Assembly: GCF_009914755.1 (NCBI RefSeq)
Contig: NC_060930.1
Strand: one strand, 5' to 3'
Source of the DNA: the human T2T-CHM13v2.0 reference genome, Homo sapiens
Length of the DNA stretch: 64,000 nt
Position numbers and translations under genes: made by a program. This document shows, piece by piece, positions 23,231 to 49,931 of the stretch (the stretch's first letter is position 1; every line of letters starts with the position of its first letter). The notes under the pieces were generated by a model. That model was not told the DNA's origin. It ran no database searches and saw only the letters and a program-made list of their open reading frames with translations.

Positions 23231-26047
23231 TATAATCTATTGATCTGATCCAGAAACAGTCAGTAGTTAACTTAATCTGTATTTCAGACACCATTACCTT
23301 AACCTTCATCTCCACCATATCCTTTTTTTCTGGCCAAAATTGCTGATAGCTTTGTGGTGCCTCTTCTATTAAACTCAATTTCTCCTACTTGACTTTCAAG
23401 ATTTGATGTAATTCATCTCTGCCTTTTCTATACAAATTTCTATACAATATTACTTAATCCTCTTCAAAATATGAAGGATTGTATTTAATGTTTGCGGGTC
23501 TTGTTTTGTAAGCAGAGTAGAAGATATTTAATTGCACCTTGTTCTGCTGGCTCCACAACTAACCTAACCGAACAGGGACTCCTTTATTATGAGAGAAGCC
23601 ATCACAATAATAGCAGTAACTCAAGCATTAACCCACATTCATTTCTCAGGTAAAACTAAGCATGACTGTTTTCAGTGTCAGGTTCCTGTAGTTCCTGTTA
23701 AGTTGGGTCCTGGTGAACTCATATGGAGCTCAGTGTGTAACTGGTGAGGATCTAAGTGAAAACAAAGAATTACAATGCAGATCTCCAGCCCAGCAGATCT
23801 CTGAAAACACTCTTGCAAATGTTAGGAATGAAGAAAGGCATGGGTGTCTGTCATCTGGGAGGAATACATTTTAGTCTCATATTCTGTCTGTTTTTTAATG
23901 TAAATAGTGCATATTTCTAGCAAATTGACAGAAGAATATCAAGTTAAACTCAGAAATTTCTGTTGTAATTTGCTGTGGAGTCTGTGCTATCAGTGTAATA
24001 AGCATCTGCAAATTCATGTTACATTTTAAAGGTGTTCTTAAATTGTTTGCTTCATTTCTATGAAGTTTTAAAAATCCTATGATTTATTTCAACATGTTCT
24101 GCATATGCAGCTTAACATTTTCTATTCGTTTTCCTATTGTTTGTTGTCTAGTCATTCATTTTATTTAGTTTCAGTTATGTGAAATGGTGAGACTAAAACC
24201 ATGCTACTTAAAACAAATTTGCTCATTTTTTTCCTCTGAGCATCTTCAAGTAAGATCTATGATTAACTGCACATTGAAAAACATATTGTACCTTCTTTAG
24301 TTATATATAAAATCTACAAATATACCTAATTTGAATTTCAAGAGGGAGATAAAAATAATCTTCAGCAGTAGATAACTAGGACATTTAAACTAATGAAATA
24401 CAAGGTGCAGGTTATATCCGATGGAGCTTTATTTGCCATTAATGGAGGTTTAGAATAGACAACACCTCACTTGTTATTGCTGCCAAATTATCAAATTTAG
24501 AAATTCCTACTACTGTTACCTATCTACAAAATAGTTGGCTAGTGCATCACTACTTACTAAACTTTGTGCAATAGGTCCAATTAAATTGGATCAATTAATT
24601 ACATTTATTTTAACCTCAAGGTCAATCAGAAGAGGACTTTTATTGTTTTAATTACAGATTTAATTACATCCAATTATTGAACTTGAAAAAAAATCCACCC
24701 CCTTACAGCACTTAACTCTAATGAAGTTCGCAGAAGCATTCCTGTTGAAATATTTTATTCTCCTGCCCACATTCTTTAAGCTATGCTGAGATGCACTAGA
24801 CAGAAGAGTAAGAACAGCTGGTAGGAGTGTGTGGGATACTGCAGGGACACCAACACAAGGCCAAGAGGATGCTGCTCCACAGCTTGAAAATTTGCCAGTC
24901 ACCATGTTATCTTTATCATTTTACTATCTGGAGTTACAGTTTTTGCATTTAGGATTTAGATAATCTCTTTGATTTGTGTGTTTCTTTCAGTAGCTTTCTT
25001 CAAAATTGACATTGACTTTTCATTGCAGCTAACAATATACAACGAAGGGTAAAAGTAGGAGATAAGTGCTTCAATGAAAACATTGTTACTGATGATTACC
25101 GTAAATGTTTAAATATAATTTTTATTTAGTTATGGAACTTGTGTATTTTAATAATGGCTTATGATAGTGTATTTTTGTACCAGTTATAAATCTAATATTT
25201 TGGAGATAATTTTATAATTTCCGGGATCTCCCTCAGTGTTCCAGGATATATAATTATCACTGTATAAAATTAAGAAGAATGTTGGTTTATGTCTTGCATC
25301 TTTGAGCAGCATTTTGTTAATATGTATATCAGAAATGGGCAGGGACAGGCCAGGATATCAAGATTATCTTTGAATTTCAGTTTAGTGTAGCATGAGCCTC
25401 ATCACTACAAGTATGATAGCTAGCAATAGCGCCTCATCTGACATTTGCCTATTATTCTCATTTTTGGGGGGAATTTAAGAGGGTGATGTTTTAAAATAGG
25501 GAGTGCTTAGTATTCATCATTTCAGGTGCAAGTTAGAATGTCACTGAGTCACTTTCTATGTCAAACAACTCAATCATTCAACCAGATTTATCACTTTTTC
25601 CTTTTGTTTTGGATTTAACGTTTGCATGATCTAGTAACCTGAATGAAAAAAAAATCTAAGTTCATTTATTTTATCAAATGTTTAAAATATATGTGAACGT
25701 CCAACGACAAAATATTTCCTCTCTCATGCAAATATTGTTGTTAGTATCATGCAGTAGTTTCAGGAAGGAGCAAGAAAGATTATAACTGTTTGGCAGTATG
25801 GCTCTTTGAAGACATAATCTTGTTATTCTGTAATAATTAGAGTGGAATTAGGTTAGTGTGCAAGAGAACAAAAGGAAGTAATGGATATTCATTTTTCTTC
25901 GTATTCTGATTGGTCCACTCAACTATTTCAATAAAACTTTATCTCTTCTTGTAATATTGTATAGGAAAACAAAGAACATGTAAGGGATATAAAGGAATCC
26001 ACCAATGATTGGAGACAGGATTTTCTTTACATTGTCTAATAGACTTG

Positions 26048-26053
26048 TTTATT
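26048..26053 (-). terminator. Probable distal poly(A) signal of EPHA7
   Basis: TTTATT on the + strand. Other AATAAA hexamers at 26275-26280, 27076-27081, 28599-28604, 29081-29086 and 29197-29202 are alternative candidates. Confidence 0.6.
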
Positions 26054-26939
26054 ATTTTAAGCTGGTAAAAAGAGACTTATGATTCATGTTGAAGAAAGAG
26101 TTATTTGTGCTTGATACATTGAAGACACTGTTCAAAAGCAGTTTGTCCTTATAAAAGGATGACCCCTGTAGTATTTCTTAGGCAAGGAGGGACAAATTCA
26201 ACCAACGAAAAGCACATCTCGCCCCGAGTTCCCCATGATTTCTCCACATATAGCAAAAAAATACACATCAGTAATTTATTTGAACATGCACATCAGTGAG
26301 TAGCATAGTTCTAGGCTACTCAAGAAACAAAAGGGAGAATATCAGCATTACCTAAATAAAAAAGAGAGGTGAATCACACCATTTTAATTGTCTTAAAAAC
26401 ACAGATAAGAAGAGCAATTAAAATATAGTCCTAAACAGTACTAGCTAATGTAGATTACATAAGTATACAATATGATTCAACTAATAGTGCTCTGACAAGC
26501 ATAAACCACCAGTTCTAGTAAACAAGGACCAGATCAATTGCTGAGAAAATGTTAGATTCAAATGTAGAACAAGTTACTTTTATTTCAGTACTGAATGCAA
26601 AACACAGGTCAAGTGTGAGGACAGTGTTCTAAAAAAGGTGGCTCTATTAAAGCAAGGAGGCCATTTCCTTTTGCATTTTTATAATTTTGGAATTCTATTT
26701 TTGACGTTCACTTTCTCTACTTTTCCTCCCCTGAGCACTAATTTATTTAAAAAAAAAGATTTCAAGGTGCAAGTTGTACATTCTTATCGTTATACCATCT
26801 CATCTCTTTCTGGAAGAGAGTATTACAATCAGCATTACAATGTTAATTCTTTTTCTCTTAATATTTGTTTCACATACATGTATTTCGAAATCATAATGTT
26901 GATTAGGAAAAGAAACTTACAAACGAGATAGTGATGTAA

Positions 26940-27001
26940 TCATACACTTCCTATTGTGCTGTGTGTCTTTCCCATCCCTTCTCCCCTTTCCCTGTAAAGA
27001 G
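26940..27001 (-). CDS. EPHA7: T2-type alternative terminal coding segment embedded in the 3' UTR
   Basis: ttttttacag|CT CTT TAC AGG GAA AGG GGA GAA GGG ATG GGA AAG ACA CAC AGC ACA ATA GGA AGT GTA TGA. With exon 9 it gives SLYRERGEGMGKTHSTIGSV*, homologous to the recalled rodent T2 tail. Use in human is not demonstrated here. Confidence 0.6.
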
Positions 27002-29426
27002 CTGTAAAAAATTTAAGGCAGATGAGGTATATTGCTGAAGGAAAAAGTTATTTTTGAAAAAAACTCAAAAAAACTTTTATTCTGCCCTTCTACTCAAGAA
27101 AGACTACTCAACTATAAATCTAGTGCTAGAAAAAAGCAGGAAAGACACCGTTTGCATGTACCATACTATGTCTTCTATTTCTAGAATGGCTTTTGTTAAT
27201 TTAATTTTAATAGAAAAAATAAGCACCTTAAGCTATGAACAAGAAAAGAACTTCATTATTAGTGAGTCTAGAATCCAAAAGGAATTAAGAACACTCACTC
27301 AAACTCTTTCACTCATTCTCACAAAGGCCAATGCTACTGATTAGAATTGTAAAGTGCTGGACTTAGTATAAACACTTGTACACACTGCAGACACTGAAAA
27401 ATAACCCTCAAGCACATTGTGTTATAGTTCCAAAAATATATTTACAGTCTATTACAAAGATTACAAATGGAAGTGTCTAGGTGACTGTATTATGCTAATT
27501 AAAATTATTTTTACAGATTACTTTTCCTTAGGGACAAAAAACATTTTAGTGAAATTAAAATGATTTTTCTAGTCAATCAAAAAATAAATTAAAATATCAA
27601 ATAACACTGTACAGTGATTTAAAACCAAAAAAAAAGGGTGGGGAGGGGTTTGGGAAGCAATCCATTTGAGTTTTTCTATAGCCGTCTTTGGTCCTAAATG
27701 TGGGAAAACACATTATGTAGCACTGAAAATACCTGTTCTTTTGTGATGCTCTGCAAGTAAAATAGAAAAATATAGTGCATTTTCAATGTATTCAGAGCCC
27801 ACTACAGAGAAATGTGTGTACAAAACAAGACAGTATAAATAAAATTTACAAGTTTTACAAAGGAACATTTACAGATTTTGTTTCTGTTATTTGTTTGTTT
27901 GTTTGTGGATGCCCACATTATCAAACAAGACCAATTATGACCGATCCCTGGGATCTTTCTCTATTAAAATCATTATAAACAGCCCAATTCTCTTTGGAAG
28001 TACAACAGTTCAATTCTGGGGTAGTTCATGATTTTCATAAGTTTTGAAAGCATTAATCACAATATGTATACATTCCTGCAATATCTATAAAGACACATTT
28101 AATTATTGCTTATGAAATTCTAACACAGTAATCAAATAATATGGTTTAATAAATAAAGCTTTAAAAACAAGCCAGATCCTTCACCTCTTCCTTCTAGGGT
28201 AAAGAGTCCTTTCATTTAACAAGTTTCTTGCATCAGTGTTCACAAACAAAAGACTTTTTGTTTTGTTTTGTTTTGAACTGCAATGGTGATATTCTGTGCA
28301 GCAAATTTGTGTTTAAATGGTGAAAATTGTGAACTGCCCCTTTATCATGCTTCAGAGTTATAATATAAAACAATTATTTCCTTTCATGTTTGGACTGCAT
28401 TCAACAGAAGAGGATATAAAATATATGTCAACTATTTATCCTAAATTTCCTAATGTCACGAGAATGAAAAAATCTTGATGTGCTCAGATTAATTTTTAGA
28501 TAACACTGGATAGTTCTGCTTTCAGAGACTTGCCTTCACCAACATTCTTCAGATGAAGTGCCTCATTTGTTTATATACTCATAAACCTAAACTTCGAGTT
28601 TATTAAATTCTTTCTAGTAAAATCACTCTATAAACAATCTGTTAAAAGTGCCTTATAGTATGTATGGATCATTATTGCTTTTTTCATTGAAAAGATAGTG
28701 TGTTGTCTGATCTTTACAAAAAAATTCTTTTTAAAAAATATCAGAGCTCTTGGCAACTTGCATTTTCTTGACTACCTGCCAATTAGCAAACAATATCAAA
28801 ACAGCACTGATTAAACAGAATAAAATGGCACAAAAAGGATACCAATGTTCTAACAGAGATGTATCTTCAATCATGCTATTTCTTTTGAAATTTGAGATTC
28901 TTTCAAAGGTACCCAGTGTAGTAATGTTACAGATTTAACACTAAAAAGGTCCAAAGCTATAAACAGCTTTCTAAAACAAAGTCCTTATGAAGAATAAACA
29001 CAAATGATTTTAAAAAGGAATAGTCTGAAATCACATATTTAAGGAAAATATTTCATTAATTTTAACAATAAGATCATGATTTTATTTGACAAATATATTC
29101 TTTCTTAAATTCTTTATGTACATTTTAAAAAGTCTATAAGACAAAAAGGAGGTTAGAGAGCTCAAGGTGTTTGGATGTTTTTCAGGTAGTACTTTGTTTA
29201 TTGTCACTGCTATTTTCCTGGCCACCGATGGTGGATCCTAAATTCCCTTTTTATATATTCTGGTGGCACTTAGGAGTTCAAGTCTATAGGTGCTTCTTAA
29301 ATCTTCTCTTCACTGTTGGAAGGACCCAGGACATCACTTGTCTTCTAGCAGCATTCTATGCATATACTGAAGGCCAGTACTGTTCTCTTGCAGTCTGTAA
29401 TCTCCCTTAAAAGGGAGAAATGCATA

Positions 29427-29541
29427 TCACACTTGAATGCCAGTTCCATGTAAATGTAGCATTTGTGCTCTCATAGTCTGAATGCTGCTCATGATTTTCT
29501 TTTGATGACCAACCAGTGTGATCCCTAAACTCATCACATCC
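29427..29541 (-). CDS. EPHA7: EPHA7 exon 17 coding part (115 bp), end of SAM domain and PDZ-binding motif
   Basis: tttcag|GGATGTGATG...ATTCAAGTGTGA. Translates (E)DVMSLGITLVGHQKKIMSSIQTMRAQMLHLHGTGIQV*. Confidence 0.97.
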
Positions 29542-30959
29542 CTGAAAAAGACAAATGCACTTTTTATTAGGTACCTTACAAAGAATAAATGTGGCACTAA
29601 ACTGTCATCAACTGTTTAATTAAATACGTTATCTTAGCCAAATAGATCTTATCTTAGTGTTCTTGGGTATTATGATCACACCCCTGCAGCAGATCAGAAT
29701 TGTAAAACCTACATCAACATTCTCCTTTGTAAAAACCTAACTGCTCAGGTTCTCAATTTACTCTCAATTCACTTTTAAAGTGATTTGAAATTTTACATAA
29801 GAAATTATTAAAGTCTTAAAACTATTATTAACTTAAGGAAAGGTTAGGAAATGTTATTTGAAATGTTGTATTCTTGAACCTAATAGGGATTTAGAAATTT
29901 CTAACTGGAAAAAGCTTGATAAAGGATAATGAAAACAGTTTGTGGGATCTAGTAGAAAAATTGGAACTCATCAATGACCATGTAAGTTTTTATACTGGAT
30001 TCAATTAACGTGTGGTAATTCTGAGCATATTATTGGTTATCTACTTATTTCAGTGAGTTCAATCATTTCATTATATGTTATAAAAACTATCTTTTAAAAT
30101 GTACATCTAAATTTAATAGCTTAAATTTGAATTAAGAATTGGATCTGTGTTTTGCCTTTCCTAATAGCCAGATACAATGAGCTGATGTCTTTACAAGCAG
30201 CTAAAATATTGCAAAACTATAGCACCGTAGTTTTTCATGGCAGTGACTGAGAAACATGGGTTTTCAGGGGTACAGATTGCTTTGGGGACCCAAGTGTAAA
30301 AATGCCCACATAGTGACTGGAAGAAAACTGAACAAAATAGCATGCACACACTTAAACCCATGTACGTGACATTTCCTGGCATATACCAGAAAATAATATT
30401 TGATTGCTGGTCTTCATCTCATTGGAAAAACGATGACAGTACAATATAGGATCCCACAAATGGAACCTTGATTATTGTTTTCCATTTTCAAGCACATTGA
30501 CTGAGAGGAACTATGTCACCCATGAAAGTCATGCTGCAGCCAAGTCAACTGAGGTTCAGAGATTTTTAGATTGTCCAGGAACCCATAATTAGTGATGGAG
30601 CCAGACAGGAAAAGTGAGTTCTTTTAACTTCAAGTTCATAGAAATTTCAAAAGTTGCTTTATCAGGTCATTTTTTTCAGGTTAAAAAAAAAAGAATTGAT
30701 CATACATCTTCCAAAAAGTAAGTTGAACTCTTACTTTTAAGCTATGGTTAACTGAATTAAGCTTCTTTTGATCTCTTCAGAAATAATCATATTGGACGTT
30801 CTAATGCATTTCAGCATTGAGTATAAAGTTTTGAAATTATTTAAGTTCAACACAAACATGGTGAAAGAAATCCTCCTTTGCAATGGAGAAAGTTTCCCCA
30901 GTGAATAGGAATCTAAATAATACAGAAGTTAACTACAGAGGAAGCCTCACTGGATGGTG

Positions 30960-45369: not shown

Positions 45370-45495
45370 CTGCACCAATCACACGCTCAATTTTAATACA
45401 GGAGGCATCTAGCTCCTTGGCGAATTGATGGACAGCTCTATTTGGGTCCTCATAGGTTTCAGGGTCAATGTAGGTTTTGGTGCCTGGAAATTTAA
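45370..45495 (-). CDS. EPHA7: EPHA7 exon 10 (126 bp), juxtamembrane tyrosines and start of kinase; alternative acceptor starts at 45483
   Basis: cattacag|TTAAATTTCCAGGC...GGTGCAG|gtaagg. Translates (F)[41 protein letters not shown]. Confidence 0.96.
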
Positions 45496-46697
45496 CTGTA
45501 ATGATGTAAGAAAGCATGACTGTGATGAAGCAAAGCACTTATTGTGCAGTCAGCCCAGGAATTTCATTATGCAGAGTGCTCCTTGGAACAGTGAACTTGC
45601 TTCCACATCACCTGATTCACAGCAGTTTTAACAGACTACTTCAGTCTGCTGGCGTATAGGTATTATCTGCAAGCTTCTATAGGTAACATAGGATCCAGCT
45701 CATAGGTTACTAACTGAATTGCTTTTCCAGTAAATCAACAAAAGACATTCACCAAAATTTCTGACATGCCTATCAGACTGGAGGTTTAATTAAATTCACT
45801 GCTATCATGGCATAGTTCAAGCCATATTAAGGTTTGTAATGGACTTGGAAACACATTTGTAAATCTACCAGTCAGTCAATCAATCAAATTAATACACTGG
45901 GAAAAGAAGACATTTCATTTACAGGTAGCCTACTACACTGACAGCAATATTAAAAACATTTAGACATCTTACTTATTCTTTTGATTTATTTTTTTAAAGA
46001 CCAACCACCGTTGATATATACATAAAATTAATACAAGATGTGAGGGACTTCTATCACAGAATCAAAGAGATATCTTCTAAAGACAGTTTCATCTTCACCT
46101 TCAAGGGCAATAGAGGCCAGATATACAAAATGCAGAGTAAAGTTAGAAAATTTACAATATTCCTGGGATCTGTTAACCAAGTATGACAGCGATTTGAAAG
46201 AGGAATGGTTTATATGAACTTTCAATTATAAGGCTCTGGAAGATCTTAACTGCTGAGGAGGTAGCCAATATGCCTCACAAAAGGTAGTCAAAATGCAAAC
46301 AACATAGAATAATCTTAAAAGTTAAAATCTTCTTAAAATGCACCCAGAAGCATGCAGGTAACAGATAATACTATGTCAACTTTAAATAAAATTCAATTAC
46401 AATAATGTATTCCAAATCTATTTGGTAAAAGACAAAGATAAGATAGATAGGCATATATTTGGTTATATTAATGCAATAAAAATTACACTATATCCTCAAA
46501 AAAACTTTATTGTTTTAACAAAGCCACTGAACAATCTTTTCATCAAATCTTACTATTTGGAGAACAATATATTTCTTTATATATTACACTGCAGCCTAAC
46601 TGTGCTTATGTCATCACATTAAAACTATATTTTAAAAGTAAACACATAACAAAAAGAAGCAAAATGTATAAAGGAAAATGGGATTTAAAAATCTTGA

Positions 46698-46703
46698 TTT
46701 ATT
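46698..46703 (-). terminator. Candidate intronic poly(A) signal for the T1-type exon (second AATAAA at 46506-46511)
   Basis: TTTATT on the + strand (AATAAA on the transcript), 58 nt after the T1 stop codon. Confidence 0.5.
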
Positions 46704-46760
46704 CTGCTGTAGTTGATTGTTTATCCAAAATTGATTGTCTTAAACAATTATTGTTGCAGT

Positions 46761-46795
46761 TTATAAAACTGACAGATGCTCATTTGTTACTAAAG
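46761..46795 (-). CDS. EPHA7: Alternative terminal exon (T1-type kinase-less isoform), coding part
   Basis: cttcag|CT TTA GTA ACA AAT GAG CAT CTG TCA GTT TTA TAA. In frame with the exon 9 phase-1 donor it gives SLVTNEHLSVL*, the rodent EphA7-T1 tail as I recall it. It has a long pyrimidine tract upstream and AATAAA downstream. Confidence 0.85.
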
Positions 46796-49700
46796 CTGAA
46801 GATGAAAAAAAAAACAACACGAGAAGAAAAGAGAGAGGGGATAGAAGGAGAAAAGAGAGAAGAAGGAGTATAGGGAAAAGGGGAAGAGAAAAAGAGAGAA
46901 GGGAAGAAAACAATAGGTTAACCTCCTAGATTGGCAGGCAGATGGAGAATGAGCCATCTTCTCCCTTTTTATTCTCTCTTTCTTTCATTTTTTTAAAATT
47001 TTGTTTTGATAAGGGAGCTAGATTGGAGGTAACCTTCTGCATCTCAAACGGTCTCTGATGGTTCTTTATTCAAGCTGTCATAAAACATTTTGACAGACCA
47101 GAGCTTTTTTTGGCATAAAAACATGAAATACTGCCCAGCTTGGATTTGAAGACATTGTTAGAAGAAATGGTAGGAGGAAACAAAATGTAAATTCGAATTG
47201 CTTCACTAAATTCCTCCATTGTGTTTATATCTTTAAATGTAGCACTTGGGGCCATGAAAAGTTGAGGGTGCCTGATACAAATGACTGGACATTCTATTAA
47301 ATTCAGTGCTCTAAAAGCTAGTTAAATGGTTGCTTTCAAGTTTCTGTAAAAATTCAATCTGGTGTTCTAGCACCTGGGAAAATTGTCCATGTACTAAATA
47401 GAGGAATAAAAAGACAGCAACTTGTAAACAGCTGGTTACCACAGTATTATACTTTCTATATTAAGTAATCATAAAATCAAATAAAATACCTGGTTTTAAT
47501 CAAATGACAAGAAAACATATCCTTGGAAAAAGGGTGACTCAAAATATTAAGAATTTACCAGGATAGGATATGTTAAGTGCACTTTTTTCATTATTCATTT
47601 AAAAATGAATGTTTTAAAATAAGGAAAATACTGACATTATTTCTGAATATTCTGGTTTATCCCAACTTGAGTATGAACTTTTGTATTTTAAAATATTATT
47701 TTGATTTCTCATGAAATTTCAATATCTTAAAACCACCATTGCTAGTTTTCTCTAATGATGAAAACTTTATATACAGCAAGTTTATCTTGTCTATATTAGC
47801 AAGTAAGGCATGCAACTATATATTTTCTAATTACAAACTGGATGTGAAATGTGAAAAAAGTGAATGGCATAAAAATATTAAAACTGACTGATGACAATTA
47901 AGCATAAGGCTATACAACAAATTTTGGATAAGCCATGTTTCAACTGACCTTCTGCATTAACCTGCAAGTTAAAAGTAAATAAACTGGTGTATGTGATCAC
48001 TGGGGGATATTTCAAATATGCTCAATAAATAAAAGAAAAGTGAAATACTGATTATGGTAATATTAAATAATTGTGCCATTAAATTGTTCACATATGGGCA
48101 GGACCAGGGATTTCAGGAACTACAGTCTTATATTACTCTTCTATATACATTCTACACTAGAAATAAAATTTAGGCATTCAAGTTTTGATCTGCTCCTTCC
48201 TGTCTGGGGAAGTGTTAAAAATATTCTCACATGTTATTAAATAGAAACAAAAAAAGGTAACCTCCACTTTTTTCTCTATTTCCTCTAGCTATAAACTACC
48301 TATGGTTCTCTCTTCACTGAGGCTTGTCGCAGGAAAATTAATGCCAGATTAGCAAAAGGAAGTTCTGACATTGGGGGCATATCAAATAATCCCAAGTGGG
48401 GTATAGAAACACACATATTCAGTCATATTCAGGGGTATATTAAGTTTTTTGAGGCTTACCCCATATACAGTTTGGGATACTTTTTTTAGGGGAAAGAATA
48501 CATGATTATATACATAAATTTGCTACAGCACTCCCAGGGCCTAAAAAAGGCCTGTGAAAGTAAGAGGCCTTGAATATTAAACTTTATAATAAAGCCACTT
48601 CCGGGCATACATTTAACTTCAATTTGTAGTAAATTGTACTACCCCACATGCCCTTCCTATCATCAGAGGTTGAGATTCAAGAGAATTTCTTATTCAATTT
48701 GGATTTGTGTTACATAAAAGCACTTCTGTTTTGAAAACTAAAGGTAACTGTTGGTTCAAAAATACAAACACATTGAGAAAATTTAGGAATGATAAGAGCA
48801 TTTACAATTTGTGTATTTAAACCACACATTGTCATTTGAGCTTTTTTATTAAAAAAAAAGTATCACAAAGAAAATCTAAAATGTATTAGAAATTCTTGAT
48901 GGAGGCTTTGATATTCTTATGACTTTAGGATGGGTATAGGACAGTATCTTCACAGATATTGACATAAGAATCTAATAAATAACACAACAAAAGATACAAT
49001 TCTTACATCTTATGTCATGGGAAATTTATCTACACATGAGAACATTTGCCAAAGATTATGGGTACTACAAAATAATAATAAAATTGGTTTTTAATATTCT
49101 TAAGGATTAAAAATGGGGAAAATAGGTAAAGGTAAGAACATCATCAACTATCATAACTGAAGTAATTTGGTTGTTAGGTTTTGATTTTGCCTACATAAAG
49201 TAATAACAGTTACTCTCAGTGATCTCATTTTCACATGCCATCTTGTTTCATTGCAACAAGAATAAGATTAATGCAGATAGGCATCTATTTTATTTGGGTC
49301 CCTAAGCTTTCTTCTAAATATGATTTCTAAAATGAACTTTTAAGAATAAGCTAACTCAAATCCATAGGAAAACATCAGAAGTATGAATCTTATTATTATA
49401 CTATTTATGTCCTATGAAATATCTATCAATGATAGGTAATTTATAGTAGCTGAAGAGAAAGAGGCTCCTTAATTTAGCCTTTTGTGGTAGCATCACTCAT
49501 TGGATTAAAAAAGGGCCTATCTTTGTAACCTGACATGACATTCCTTAGCTAGAGAAGGGGCACATGCAACCTTTAATGTATTATTATTAGGATGGTAAGA
49601 AACACTTGGGCAAAGTTTGCAAAATGAAACATTGTGATGTAAAAGCAGCTGAATATCCTGCAATTATATGACATTTCTGAACATATTTTATTTTTTCAAA

Positions 49701-49875
49701 TTCACATCACATGATTTTAATTCTAAACATCTGATTCAAATGCTTTAAAGCAACATTTTGAGCTCATGGTATAATTTCAAGCATGATGCATGAGGACTTT
49801 GTTAATGCCAATGCTAATAACCAGATTTTTCTGTTAATAGGGGTACATCATAATAAAGAAAAGCCAAACACTTAC

Positions 49876-49931
49876 AATGAAAGTAAAGCTCTTCATCGCC
49901 TTCTTGGTCAGCTTTGCTATAACCACAGTGC
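49876..49931 (-). CDS. EPHA7: EPHA7 exon 9 (56 bp), proximal juxtamembrane; its donor is the branch point for full-length/T1/T2 choice
   Basis: ttcttcaag|GCACTGTGG...TTTCATT|gtaagt. Translates (R)HCGYSKADQEGDEELYFH plus 1 nt (phase 1). Confidence 0.95.

What the first reader, a model, noticed from the sequence alone, without database searches (positions are those of the whole stretch)
26917..27045. Hidden T2 terminal coding exon inside the full-length 3' UTR, with an apparent 2-nt frameshift
Seen: 2.4 kb into the 3' UTR is an acceptor (CCTCATCTGCCTTAAATTTTTTACAG|C, exon start 27001). In frame with the phase-1 exon 9 donor (49876) it reads SLYRERGEGMGKTHSTIGSV* (stop 26940-26942). Removing one CA unit from AAGACACACAGC gives SLYRERGEGMGKTQHNRKCMITSLSRL* (stop 26917-26919). 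That aligns residue for residue with the rodent EphA7-T2 tail as I recall it (SLYRERGDGMEKTQHNKKWMIASCSRL). Inference: this UTR segment is dual-use. A ~22.9-kb jump over exons 10-17 would give a kinase-less membrane receptor sharing the distal poly(A) site, with a different 20-aa tail in this lineage. The ORF track does not show it.
Basis: partly seen in the sequence, partly recalled or inferred. Interest (0 to 1): 0.8.

Follow-up and report, generated by a model that had tools for sequence, protein, structure and literature searches.

The report
Possible hidden EPHA7 truncated-receptor exon
Inside the long 3' untranslated region of human EPHA7 lies a plausible splice acceptor followed by a short open frame that could give a kinase-less membrane receptor, but I could confirm neither its match to the mouse "T2" form nor its use in human tissue.

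Summary
Exon 9 ends ...ELYFH plus one base. An AG acceptor puts an exon start at 27001. In phase it reads S + LYRERGEGMGKTHSTIGSV, stop 26940-26942. The frame offset by two bases reads ...TQHNRKCMITSLSRL, stop 26917-26919. The two frames meet at ACACAC, 26966-26961.

Acceptor and ORF alone are not beyond chance: the acceptor ranks 40 of 211 AGs in the UTR on a crude matrix, and 32 of 211 AGs give tails of 20 aa or more. In favour, a yUnAy branch candidate lies 21 nt upstream with no AG between. The 45 nt after the site are the most purine-rich stretch of the UTR and hold its only sense-strand G-quadruplex motif.

The match to rodent EphA7-T2 rests on recall only; no tool or held paper gave that sequence. 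RefSeq lists no such junction.

Best reading (0.45): human counterpart of the mouse T2 last exon, splice-competent and rarely used, with a lineage-specific tail. Rivals: an unused relic, or an unrelated UTR element. Interest is modest.

The parts
49876..49931 (-). EPHA7 exon 9: ends ...ELYFH plus one T (phase 1), followed by a gtaagt donor. This is the proposed donor of the long jump.
   Evidence: hub table
27002..27045 (-). Candidate 3' splice site region: pyrimidine-rich tract interrupted by AAA, then AG at 27003-27002. Branch candidate CTCAT with A at 27023, 21 nt upstream, and no AG in between.
26940..27001 (-). In-phase reading after exon 9: S (T+CT) then LYRERGEGMGKTHSTIGSV, stop at 26940-26942. 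This is a 20-aa private tail; the product would be 599 + 20 = 619 aa.
26961..26966 (-). ACACAC dinucleotide run where frame A and frame B meet. One CA fewer would join them.
26917..26961 (-). Second-frame remainder QHNRKCMITSLSRL plus stop 26917-26919. It is not read in human if the 27001 acceptor is used.
26971..26992 (-). GGGAAAGGGGAGAAGGGATGGG: a purine-rich, four-G-run element 10 nt after the acceptor. It could be a splicing enhancer, a G-quadruplex motif or a G-rich auxiliary element.
27034..27036 (-). Competing upstream AG (exon start 27034) with a better pyrimidine tract. It is in the same frame and would give S + IYLICLKFFTA + the same ending (31 aa).
26991..26993 (-). Competing downstream AG (exon start 26991). 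It would give a third tail, WKGEKGWERHTAQ.
26048..26053 (-). Distal AATAAA near the annotated gene end (26021). The proposed isoform would share this poly(A) signal.
   Evidence: hub table
27076..27081 (-). AATAAA about 40-75 nt upstream of the candidate acceptors, followed by U-rich tracts. It is one of 13 such hexamers in the UTR, so weak on its own.

Best explanation
The segment is the human counterpart of the alternative last coding exon of the mouse kinase-less EphA7 isoform T2, and it lies inside what is 3' UTR for the full-length mRNA.

Proposed mechanism (inferred):
1. In a minority of transcripts the exon 9 donor (49876) stays unspliced until the polymerase reaches the last exon.
2. 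It then pairs with the AG at 27003-27002, skipping exons 10-17.
3. The message ends at the same distal poly(A) site. Its stop codon sits in the last exon, so it should escape nonsense-mediated decay.

The protein would be 619 aa: ectodomain, transmembrane helix, juxtamembrane stub to ELYFH, then a 20-aa private tail. It would have no juxtamembrane tyrosines, kinase, SAM domain or PDZ-binding end. It would therefore act as a tethered decoy, as published for the mouse truncated forms.

The human tail changes frame after 13 residues because of the length of an (AC)n run. This suggests that the truncation matters, not the tail sequence.

Shown: the sequence anatomy. Inferred: orthology with T2, use of the site in human, and function.
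For: - Phase-1 donor and in-phase 20-codon frame ending in a stop.
- A second frame that stays open for 14 more codons from exactly the ACACAC run. This is the pattern a dinucleotide slip in a former 27-codon exon would leave.
- Branch candidate 21 nt upstream, with the 27003-27002 AG as the first AG after it.
- The 45 nt after the site are the most purine-rich 45-mer of the UTR: 3 of 3,360 windows reach that value, all overlapping this spot, against 0.066% of the 64-kb window.
- The acceptor score (-0.04) lies within the range of real exons of this gene: exon 10 scores -0.58 and exon 7 scores -0.81.
- The exon 9 donor already feeds several truncating last exons. RefSeq 45969-46795 gives S + LVTNEHLSVL. 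RefSeq 48829-48971 gives Y + SYVNICEDTVLYPS. A macaque model's tail maps to 49710-49763.
- The segment is single-copy in the human genome and is not a copy of the T1 exon or intron 9.
- Mouse T1 and T2 are described as truncated, membrane-bound and kinase-less (passages of PMC5295425, and PMC7173967). Tethered Epha7 forms suppress full-length phosphorylation (passage of PMC1431701).
Against: - I could not obtain that sequence from any tool or held paper.
- The hub's RefSeq table (13 transcripts) has no exon edge at 27001, 27034 or 26991.
- On my crude matrix the acceptor is ordinary: 87th percentile of AGs in the window and rank 40 of 211 in the UTR. Two better AGs lie 33 nt upstream and 10 nt downstream.
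- 32 of 211 UTR AGs give tails of 20 aa or more.
- Eight constitutive acceptors and at least two annotated alternative last exons lie between donor and site, so any use should be rare.
- 0 of 120 EphA7-like cluster representatives contain YRERG or TQHN. This is weak, because no representative ending in the T1 tail was listed either, so truncated forms are probably folded into larger clusters.
- The frame change itself argues against constraint on the tail.
- The G-rich element has other possible roles.
Confidence: 0.45

Rival explanations
1. Relic. The segment descends from the same exon as mouse T2 but is no longer, or never was, spliced in human. The frame change is neutral decay, and the sequence persists only because it is part of a conserved 3' UTR.
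For: - No RefSeq model among 13 uses the site (hub table).
- The acceptor is middling and flanked by stronger AGs.
- The frame shifts after 13 codons.
- Annotated last exons much nearer to the donor already supply kinase-less forms.
Against: - The branch candidate, first-AG rule and purine-rich stretch are all intact.
- A stop still follows within 20 codons, so a truncated receptor would still be made.
- Absence from RefSeq is weak evidence for a rare brain or embryo isoform.
Confidence: 0.25
2. Unrelated UTR element. The AG and short ORF are chance, the recalled mouse match is wrong or was shaped by the human sequence, and the G-rich/purine-rich tract works at the RNA level. It could be an RNA G-quadruplex or protein-binding site, or a G-rich auxiliary element downstream of an internal poly(A) site (AATAAA 27081-27076).
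For: - Canonical four-G-run motif at 26992-26971. It is the only one on the sense strand within the gene part of the window. Block shuffles give a mean of 0.015 per strand.
- Its best pairing partner in the last exon is a C-rich tract at about 27661-27632: -30.2 kcal/mol against a mean of -8.3, sd 4.5, over 666 windows.
- AATAAA plus U-rich tracts lie just upstream.
- Alternative poly(A) sites are reported for the mouse EphA7 3' UTR (passage of PMC2474680).
- ORF and acceptor alone are within chance.
Against: - 13 poly(A)-type hexamers occur in this AT-rich UTR, so one nearby means little.
- I saw no TGTA upstream of it on reading.
- Rfam gives no match in 25800-29700 at E up to 1.
- This reading does not explain why two frames stay open and meet at the dinucleotide run.
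That looks more like real data than invention (inference).
Confidence: 0.2
3. The region is spliced from exon 9, but at a neighbouring AG. Exon start 27034 stays in the same frame and gives an 11-residue longer tail with a hydrophobic stretch. Exon start 26991 gives a third frame with a 13-aa tail.
For: - Both score higher than 27001 on the crude matrix: 5.89 and 3.85 against -0.04.
- The frame from 27034 is open (ORF 26940..27047).
Against: - No yUnAy branch candidate was found 11-47 nt upstream of 27034.
- For 26991 an AG lies between each branch candidate and the site.
- The matrix is crude and recalled.
Confidence: 0.1

Closest known systems
Mouse EphA7-T2 (MDK1-T2), truncated kinase-less isoform (Ciossek et al. 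1995, Holmberg et al. 2000; both known to me only through citations in PMC5295425 and PMC7173967 and from recall)
   Same: Would branch after the same juxtamembrane exon, keep the ectodomain and transmembrane helix, lose the kinase, and end in a short private tail.
   Different: Identity of the tail was not tested here. Human use is unshown. I found no printed statement of where the T2 exon lies in the gene.
EPHA7-T1, RefSeq alternative last exon 45969-46795
   Same: Same donor, same phase, same first residue S, short tail (S + LVTNEHLSVL), and own stop.
   Different: T1 lies in intron 9, 3.1 kb from the donor, with a strong acceptor (5.48) and its own poly(A) signals. The candidate lies 22.9 kb away inside the last exon. 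There is no sequence similarity between them.
VEGF-A 'xxxb' isoforms: distal acceptor inside the terminal exon
   Same: A splice acceptor inside what is otherwise 3' UTR creates a different short C-terminus.
   Different: There only the last intron's acceptor moves by tens of bases. Here eight exons would be skipped.
TrkB-T1 (NTRK2) tethered decoy receptor (cited in PMC7717530, and PMC1431701)
   Same: Kinase-less membrane receptor made by an alternative last exon, with dominant-negative action.
   Different: It is a different gene family, and its last exon is intronic rather than nested in the full-length UTR.

Membership tests
EphA7-T2 isoform (orthologue of mouse MDK1-T2) | Private C-terminal tail matches the published mouse T2 tail | not testable with these tools
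   - No held paper prints it.
- The original papers are not held.
- Tail queries were too short or held a stop.
- 0 of 120 database representatives carry it.
EphA7-T2 isoform (orthologue of mouse MDK1-T2) | mRNA joins the exon ending ...ELYFH to this exon | not testable with these tools
   No transcript data were on hand. The phases are compatible. No RefSeq model has the junction (hub table).
EphA7-T2 isoform (orthologue of mouse MDK1-T2) | Keeps the transmembrane segment and lacks the kinase, SAM and PDZ-binding end | tested here: met
   - ELYFH ends at residue 599 of a 998-aa EphA7.
- The transmembrane stretch precedes it (P0003).
- The stop comes 20 codons after the junction.
Alternative last exon giving a tethered decoy receptor | Acceptor with branch point and pyrimidine tract | tested here: inconclusive
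   A branch candidate and first AG are present, but the matrix score is ordinary, rank 40 of 211, and stronger AGs lie nearby. No MaxEnt-type model was available.
Alternative last exon giving a tethered decoy receptor | In-frame stop and a poly(A) signal downstream | tested here: met
   Stop at 26940-26942. AATAAA at 26747, 26584, 26280 and 26053.
RNA G-quadruplex motif | Four runs of three or more G with loops of 1-7 nt on the RNA strand | tested here: met
   GGGAAAGGGGAGAAGGGATGGG at 26992-26971. Folding in the cell was not testable.
Internal poly(A) site | Hexamer plus downstream U/GU-rich and G-rich elements, and observed cleavage | tested here: inconclusive
   The hexamer at 27081-27076 and U-rich tracts are present, but 13 such hexamers occur in the UTR and no 3'-end data were on hand.

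The most novel reading that the evidence does not exclude
Human, or primate, EPHA7 makes a membrane-anchored kinase-less receptor from a coding exon hidden 2.4 kb inside the full-length mRNA's 3' UTR. A dinucleotide-repeat slip has given it a lineage-specific 20-aa tail. The G-quadruplex/purine-rich element just after the acceptor, and its C-rich partner 640 nt upstream, would gate the choice between reading this stretch as UTR or as exon.
Probability: 0.2. Interest if true: 0.6.

Novelty: new member of a known kind. Interest (0 to 1): 0.35.

Why it matters
Truncated EphA7 forms are reported to switch cell contact from repulsion to adhesion and to damp full-length signalling in mouse neural tube and cortex. 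If human tissue uses a further truncating exon that no RefSeq model shows, several things follow. Isoform-specific probes, UTR reporters and variant interpretation in the EPHA7 3' UTR would need to take it into account. UTR variants at the acceptor or in the ACACAC run could change a protein. It would also be a clear case of one stretch serving as UTR in one message and as coding exon in another. If it is only a relic, it is an ordinary footnote to a gene with many truncating last exons.

Tried and rejected
- **Literature for the T2 tail or its genomic place.** 'EphA7-T2' gave 0 papers. 'MDK1-T2/MDK1-T1/SLYRERG' gave 0. Accessions recalled by me gave 0. The wider searches found only papers that name T1 and T2 without sequence or map.
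- **Papers and supplements not available.** Ciossek 1995, Holmberg 2000 and Holmberg 2005 are not held. The primer list of PMC5295425 is in a PDF that cannot be read, and its one readable spreadsheet has no primers. These supplements may bear on where mouse T2 and the mouse poly(A) sites lie.
- **eLife 2020 'V3' primers.** They looked like a T2 probe but match the 12-nt alternative acceptor at 45483 exactly, so they say nothing about T2.
- **Protein database.** The 35-aa frame was below the 40-aa minimum. I did not read it through with a changed code. A search with exon 7 (61 aa) for longer proteins listed 120 representatives. None ends in the T1 tail and none carries a T2-type tail, so truncated isoforms seem to be folded into larger clusters and the blank is uninformative.
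- **Other checks.** Rfam gave no match. Duplication from T1 or intron 9 gave only matches of 17 nt or less.

Full report
**What is in the sequence**

On the minus strand, exon 9 of EPHA7 (49876-49931) translates HCGYSKADQEGDEELYFH. It leaves a single T before a gtaagt donor. In the last exon (26021-29541, hub table), 2,425 nt after the full-length coding end, the sequence reads ...cctcatctgccttaaattttttacag|ctctttacagggaaagggg..., which puts a possible exon start at 27001.

With the carried T, the junction codon is TCT (S). From 26999 the frame reads LYRERGEGMGKTHSTIGSV and stops at 26940-26942 (ORF 26940..27047). The frame that starts at 27000 reads SLQGKGRRDGKDTQHNRKCMITSLSRL and stops at 26917-26919 (ORF 26917..27012).

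The first frame has codons AAG ACA CAC AGC and the second has GAC ACA CAG CAC AAT. One CA fewer in ACACAC (26966-26961) would therefore join the first 13 residues of one frame to the last 14 of the other. The implied intron is 22,874 nt.

**Is it more than chance?**

Taken alone, no.

- I scored all AGs with a simple position matrix. Its frequencies are recalled, so it is crude, and no MaxEnt model was at hand.
- The 27001 site scores -0.04. That is the 87th percentile of AGs in the window and rank 40 of 211 in the UTR.
- It lies within the range of real exons of this gene: exon 10 scores -0.58 and exon 7 scores -0.81. It does not stand out from background.
- Two neighbours score higher. Exon start 27034 (5.89) stays in the same frame and gives an 11-residue longer tail. 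Exon start 26991 (3.85) gives a third frame, WKGEKGWERHTAQ.
- 32 of 211 UTR AGs give phase-1 tails of 20 aa or more.

- A yUnAy branch candidate (CTCAT, A at 27023) lies 21 nt upstream, and the 27003-27002 AG is the first AG after it. No such candidate was found for 27034. For 26991 an AG intervenes.
- The 45 nt after the site are the most purine-rich 45-mer of the 3.4-kb UTR. Three of 3,360 windows reach that value, all at this spot, against 0.066% of the whole window.

The same stretch is a canonical four-G-run motif, GGGAAAGGGGAGAAGGGATGGG (26992-26971). It is the only one on the sense strand within the gene part of the window. Block shuffles give 0.015 per strand.

**Surroundings**

The exon 9 donor is a hub for truncating choices.

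- RefSeq's alternative exon 45969-46795 gives S + LVTNEHLSVL. This is the T1 form that mouse workers probe. The T1 reverse primer of PMC7173967 matches it by eye with one mismatch.
- RefSeq's 48829-48971 gives Y + SYVNICEDTVLYPS.
- A macaque database fragment (P0003) ends in yet another tail, which maps to human 49710-49763.
- Read-through of the donor gives CKCLA....

Exon 10's own acceptor is weak on my matrix, which fits this leakiness. The candidate segment is single-copy in the human genome. It shares nothing with intron 9 or the T1 exon beyond matches of 17 nt or less. It has no Rfam match and is not in the hub's list of masked repeats.

**Related sequences and print**

I could not obtain the mouse T2 sequence.

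- Full-text searches for the isoform names, the peptide and recalled accessions found nothing.
- Wider searches found papers of which I read passages only. PMC5295425 says T1 and T2 are truncated mRNAs lacking the intracellular domain. PMC7173967 says there are two truncated proteins, T1 and T2, lacking the kinase. PMC7717530 treats FL and T1 only. PMC1431701 lists tethered Epha7 forms as known decoys. PMC2474680 reports alternative poly(A) sites in the mouse EphA7 3' UTR and says truncated isoforms were left out of its study.
- None of the passages I read says where the T2 exon lies or mentions a human T2.
- The original papers are not held.
- Primer lists and tables in supplements could not be read.
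- The 'V3' primers of PMC7173967 hit the 12-nt alternative acceptor at 45483, not T2.
- In the protein database the tail frames were too short or held a stop. A search with exon 7 returned 120 representatives. None ends in the T1 tail and none has a T2-type tail, so truncated isoforms seem to be hidden in larger clusters and the blank says little.

I give it about three chances in four. The two-frame pattern is what such an alignment predicts. This weighing is inference, not a test.

**How it most likely works**

My best reading (0.45) is that this is the human counterpart of the mouse T2 last exon and is still splice-competent. In rare transcripts the exon 9 donor waits until the last exon is made and then joins the 27003-27002 AG. 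The purine-rich stretch acts as an enhancer, and the message ends at the distal poly(A) site (AATAAA 26053-26048).

The product would be 619 aa, since ELYFH ends at residue 599. It would have the ectodomain, the membrane helix, a short stub and a 20-aa tail. It would lack the juxtamembrane tyrosines, kinase, SAM domain and PDZ-binding end, and so would be a tethered decoy like T1. All steps after the anatomy are inferred.

Evidence against:
- No RefSeq model uses the site.
- The acceptor is ordinary and has competitors.
- Eight constitutive acceptors and at least two alternative last exons come first.
- The frame change shows that the tail is not constrained.

**Rivals**

- An orthologous but unused relic (0.25).
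- A chance acceptor and ORF on a UTR element that works as RNA (0.2). This could be a G-quadruplex or protein-binding site. It could also be a G-rich auxiliary element of an internal poly(A) site at AATAAA 27081-27076, although 13 such hexamers occur in this UTR.
- Splicing at 27034 or 26991 instead (0.1).

The G-rich element's best pairing partner in the last exon is a C-rich tract about 640 nt upstream: -30.2 kcal/mol against a mean of -8.3, sd 4.5, over 666 windows. That could serve either reading.

**Comparison and verdict**

The kind is well known: alternative last exons that make kinase-less tethered receptors, such as EphA7-T1/T2 and TrkB-T1. A distal acceptor inside a last exon also has a precedent in VEGF-A 'b' forms (recalled). 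If real, this is a new human member of that kind, with two twists: it is nested in the full-length UTR, and its tail is shifted by a repeat slip.

Membership in 'T2' was met only for domain content. Tail identity and junction use were not testable here. Interest is modest (0.35) and would rise if junction reads exist.

Noticed in passing
window 26971-26992 and about 27632-27661 (minus strand): The only sense-strand G-quadruplex motif within the gene part of the window sits 10 nt after the candidate acceptor. A C-rich tract (CCCAAACCCCTCCCCACCC in the mRNA) 640 nt upstream is its best duplex partner in the whole last exon: -30.2 kcal/mol, next unrelated window -19.9.
   Followed up: partly
window 49710-49763 (minus strand), intron 9: A macaque database fragment (P0003, 168 aa) ends ...ELYFH plus an 18-aa tail. 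That tail maps here in human at 83% identity, about 110 nt after exon 9. The hub's RefSeq table lists no human exon here. I did not check whether the human acceptor and frame are intact.
   Followed up: partly
window 45472-45483 (minus strand), exon 10: The 'EphA7V3' forward primer of PMC7173967, which that paper appears to use for its third EphA7 variant (its discussion names FL, T1 and T2), spans exon 9 to the 12-nt alternative acceptor at 45483. It therefore detects the small in-frame variant, not T2.
   Followed up: yes
window 45495, 46795, 48971 (minus strand): On the crude matrix the constitutive exon 10 acceptor is weak (-0.58), the T1 acceptor is strong (5.48) and the 48971 acceptor is very weak (-3.1). 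This fits leaky choice after exon 9.
   Followed up: no
window 27076-27081 (minus strand): AATAAA followed by long U runs lies 40-75 nt upstream of the candidate acceptors. PMC2474680 reports alternative poly(A) sites in the mouse EphA7 3' UTR without giving positions in the text I could read.
   Followed up: partly
window 49862-49875 (minus strand): Read-through of the exon 9 donor stays open (…ELYFH CKCLA…). A frog database model (P0051) ends in such a read-through tail, so intron-retention forms may add to the truncated set.
   Followed up: no
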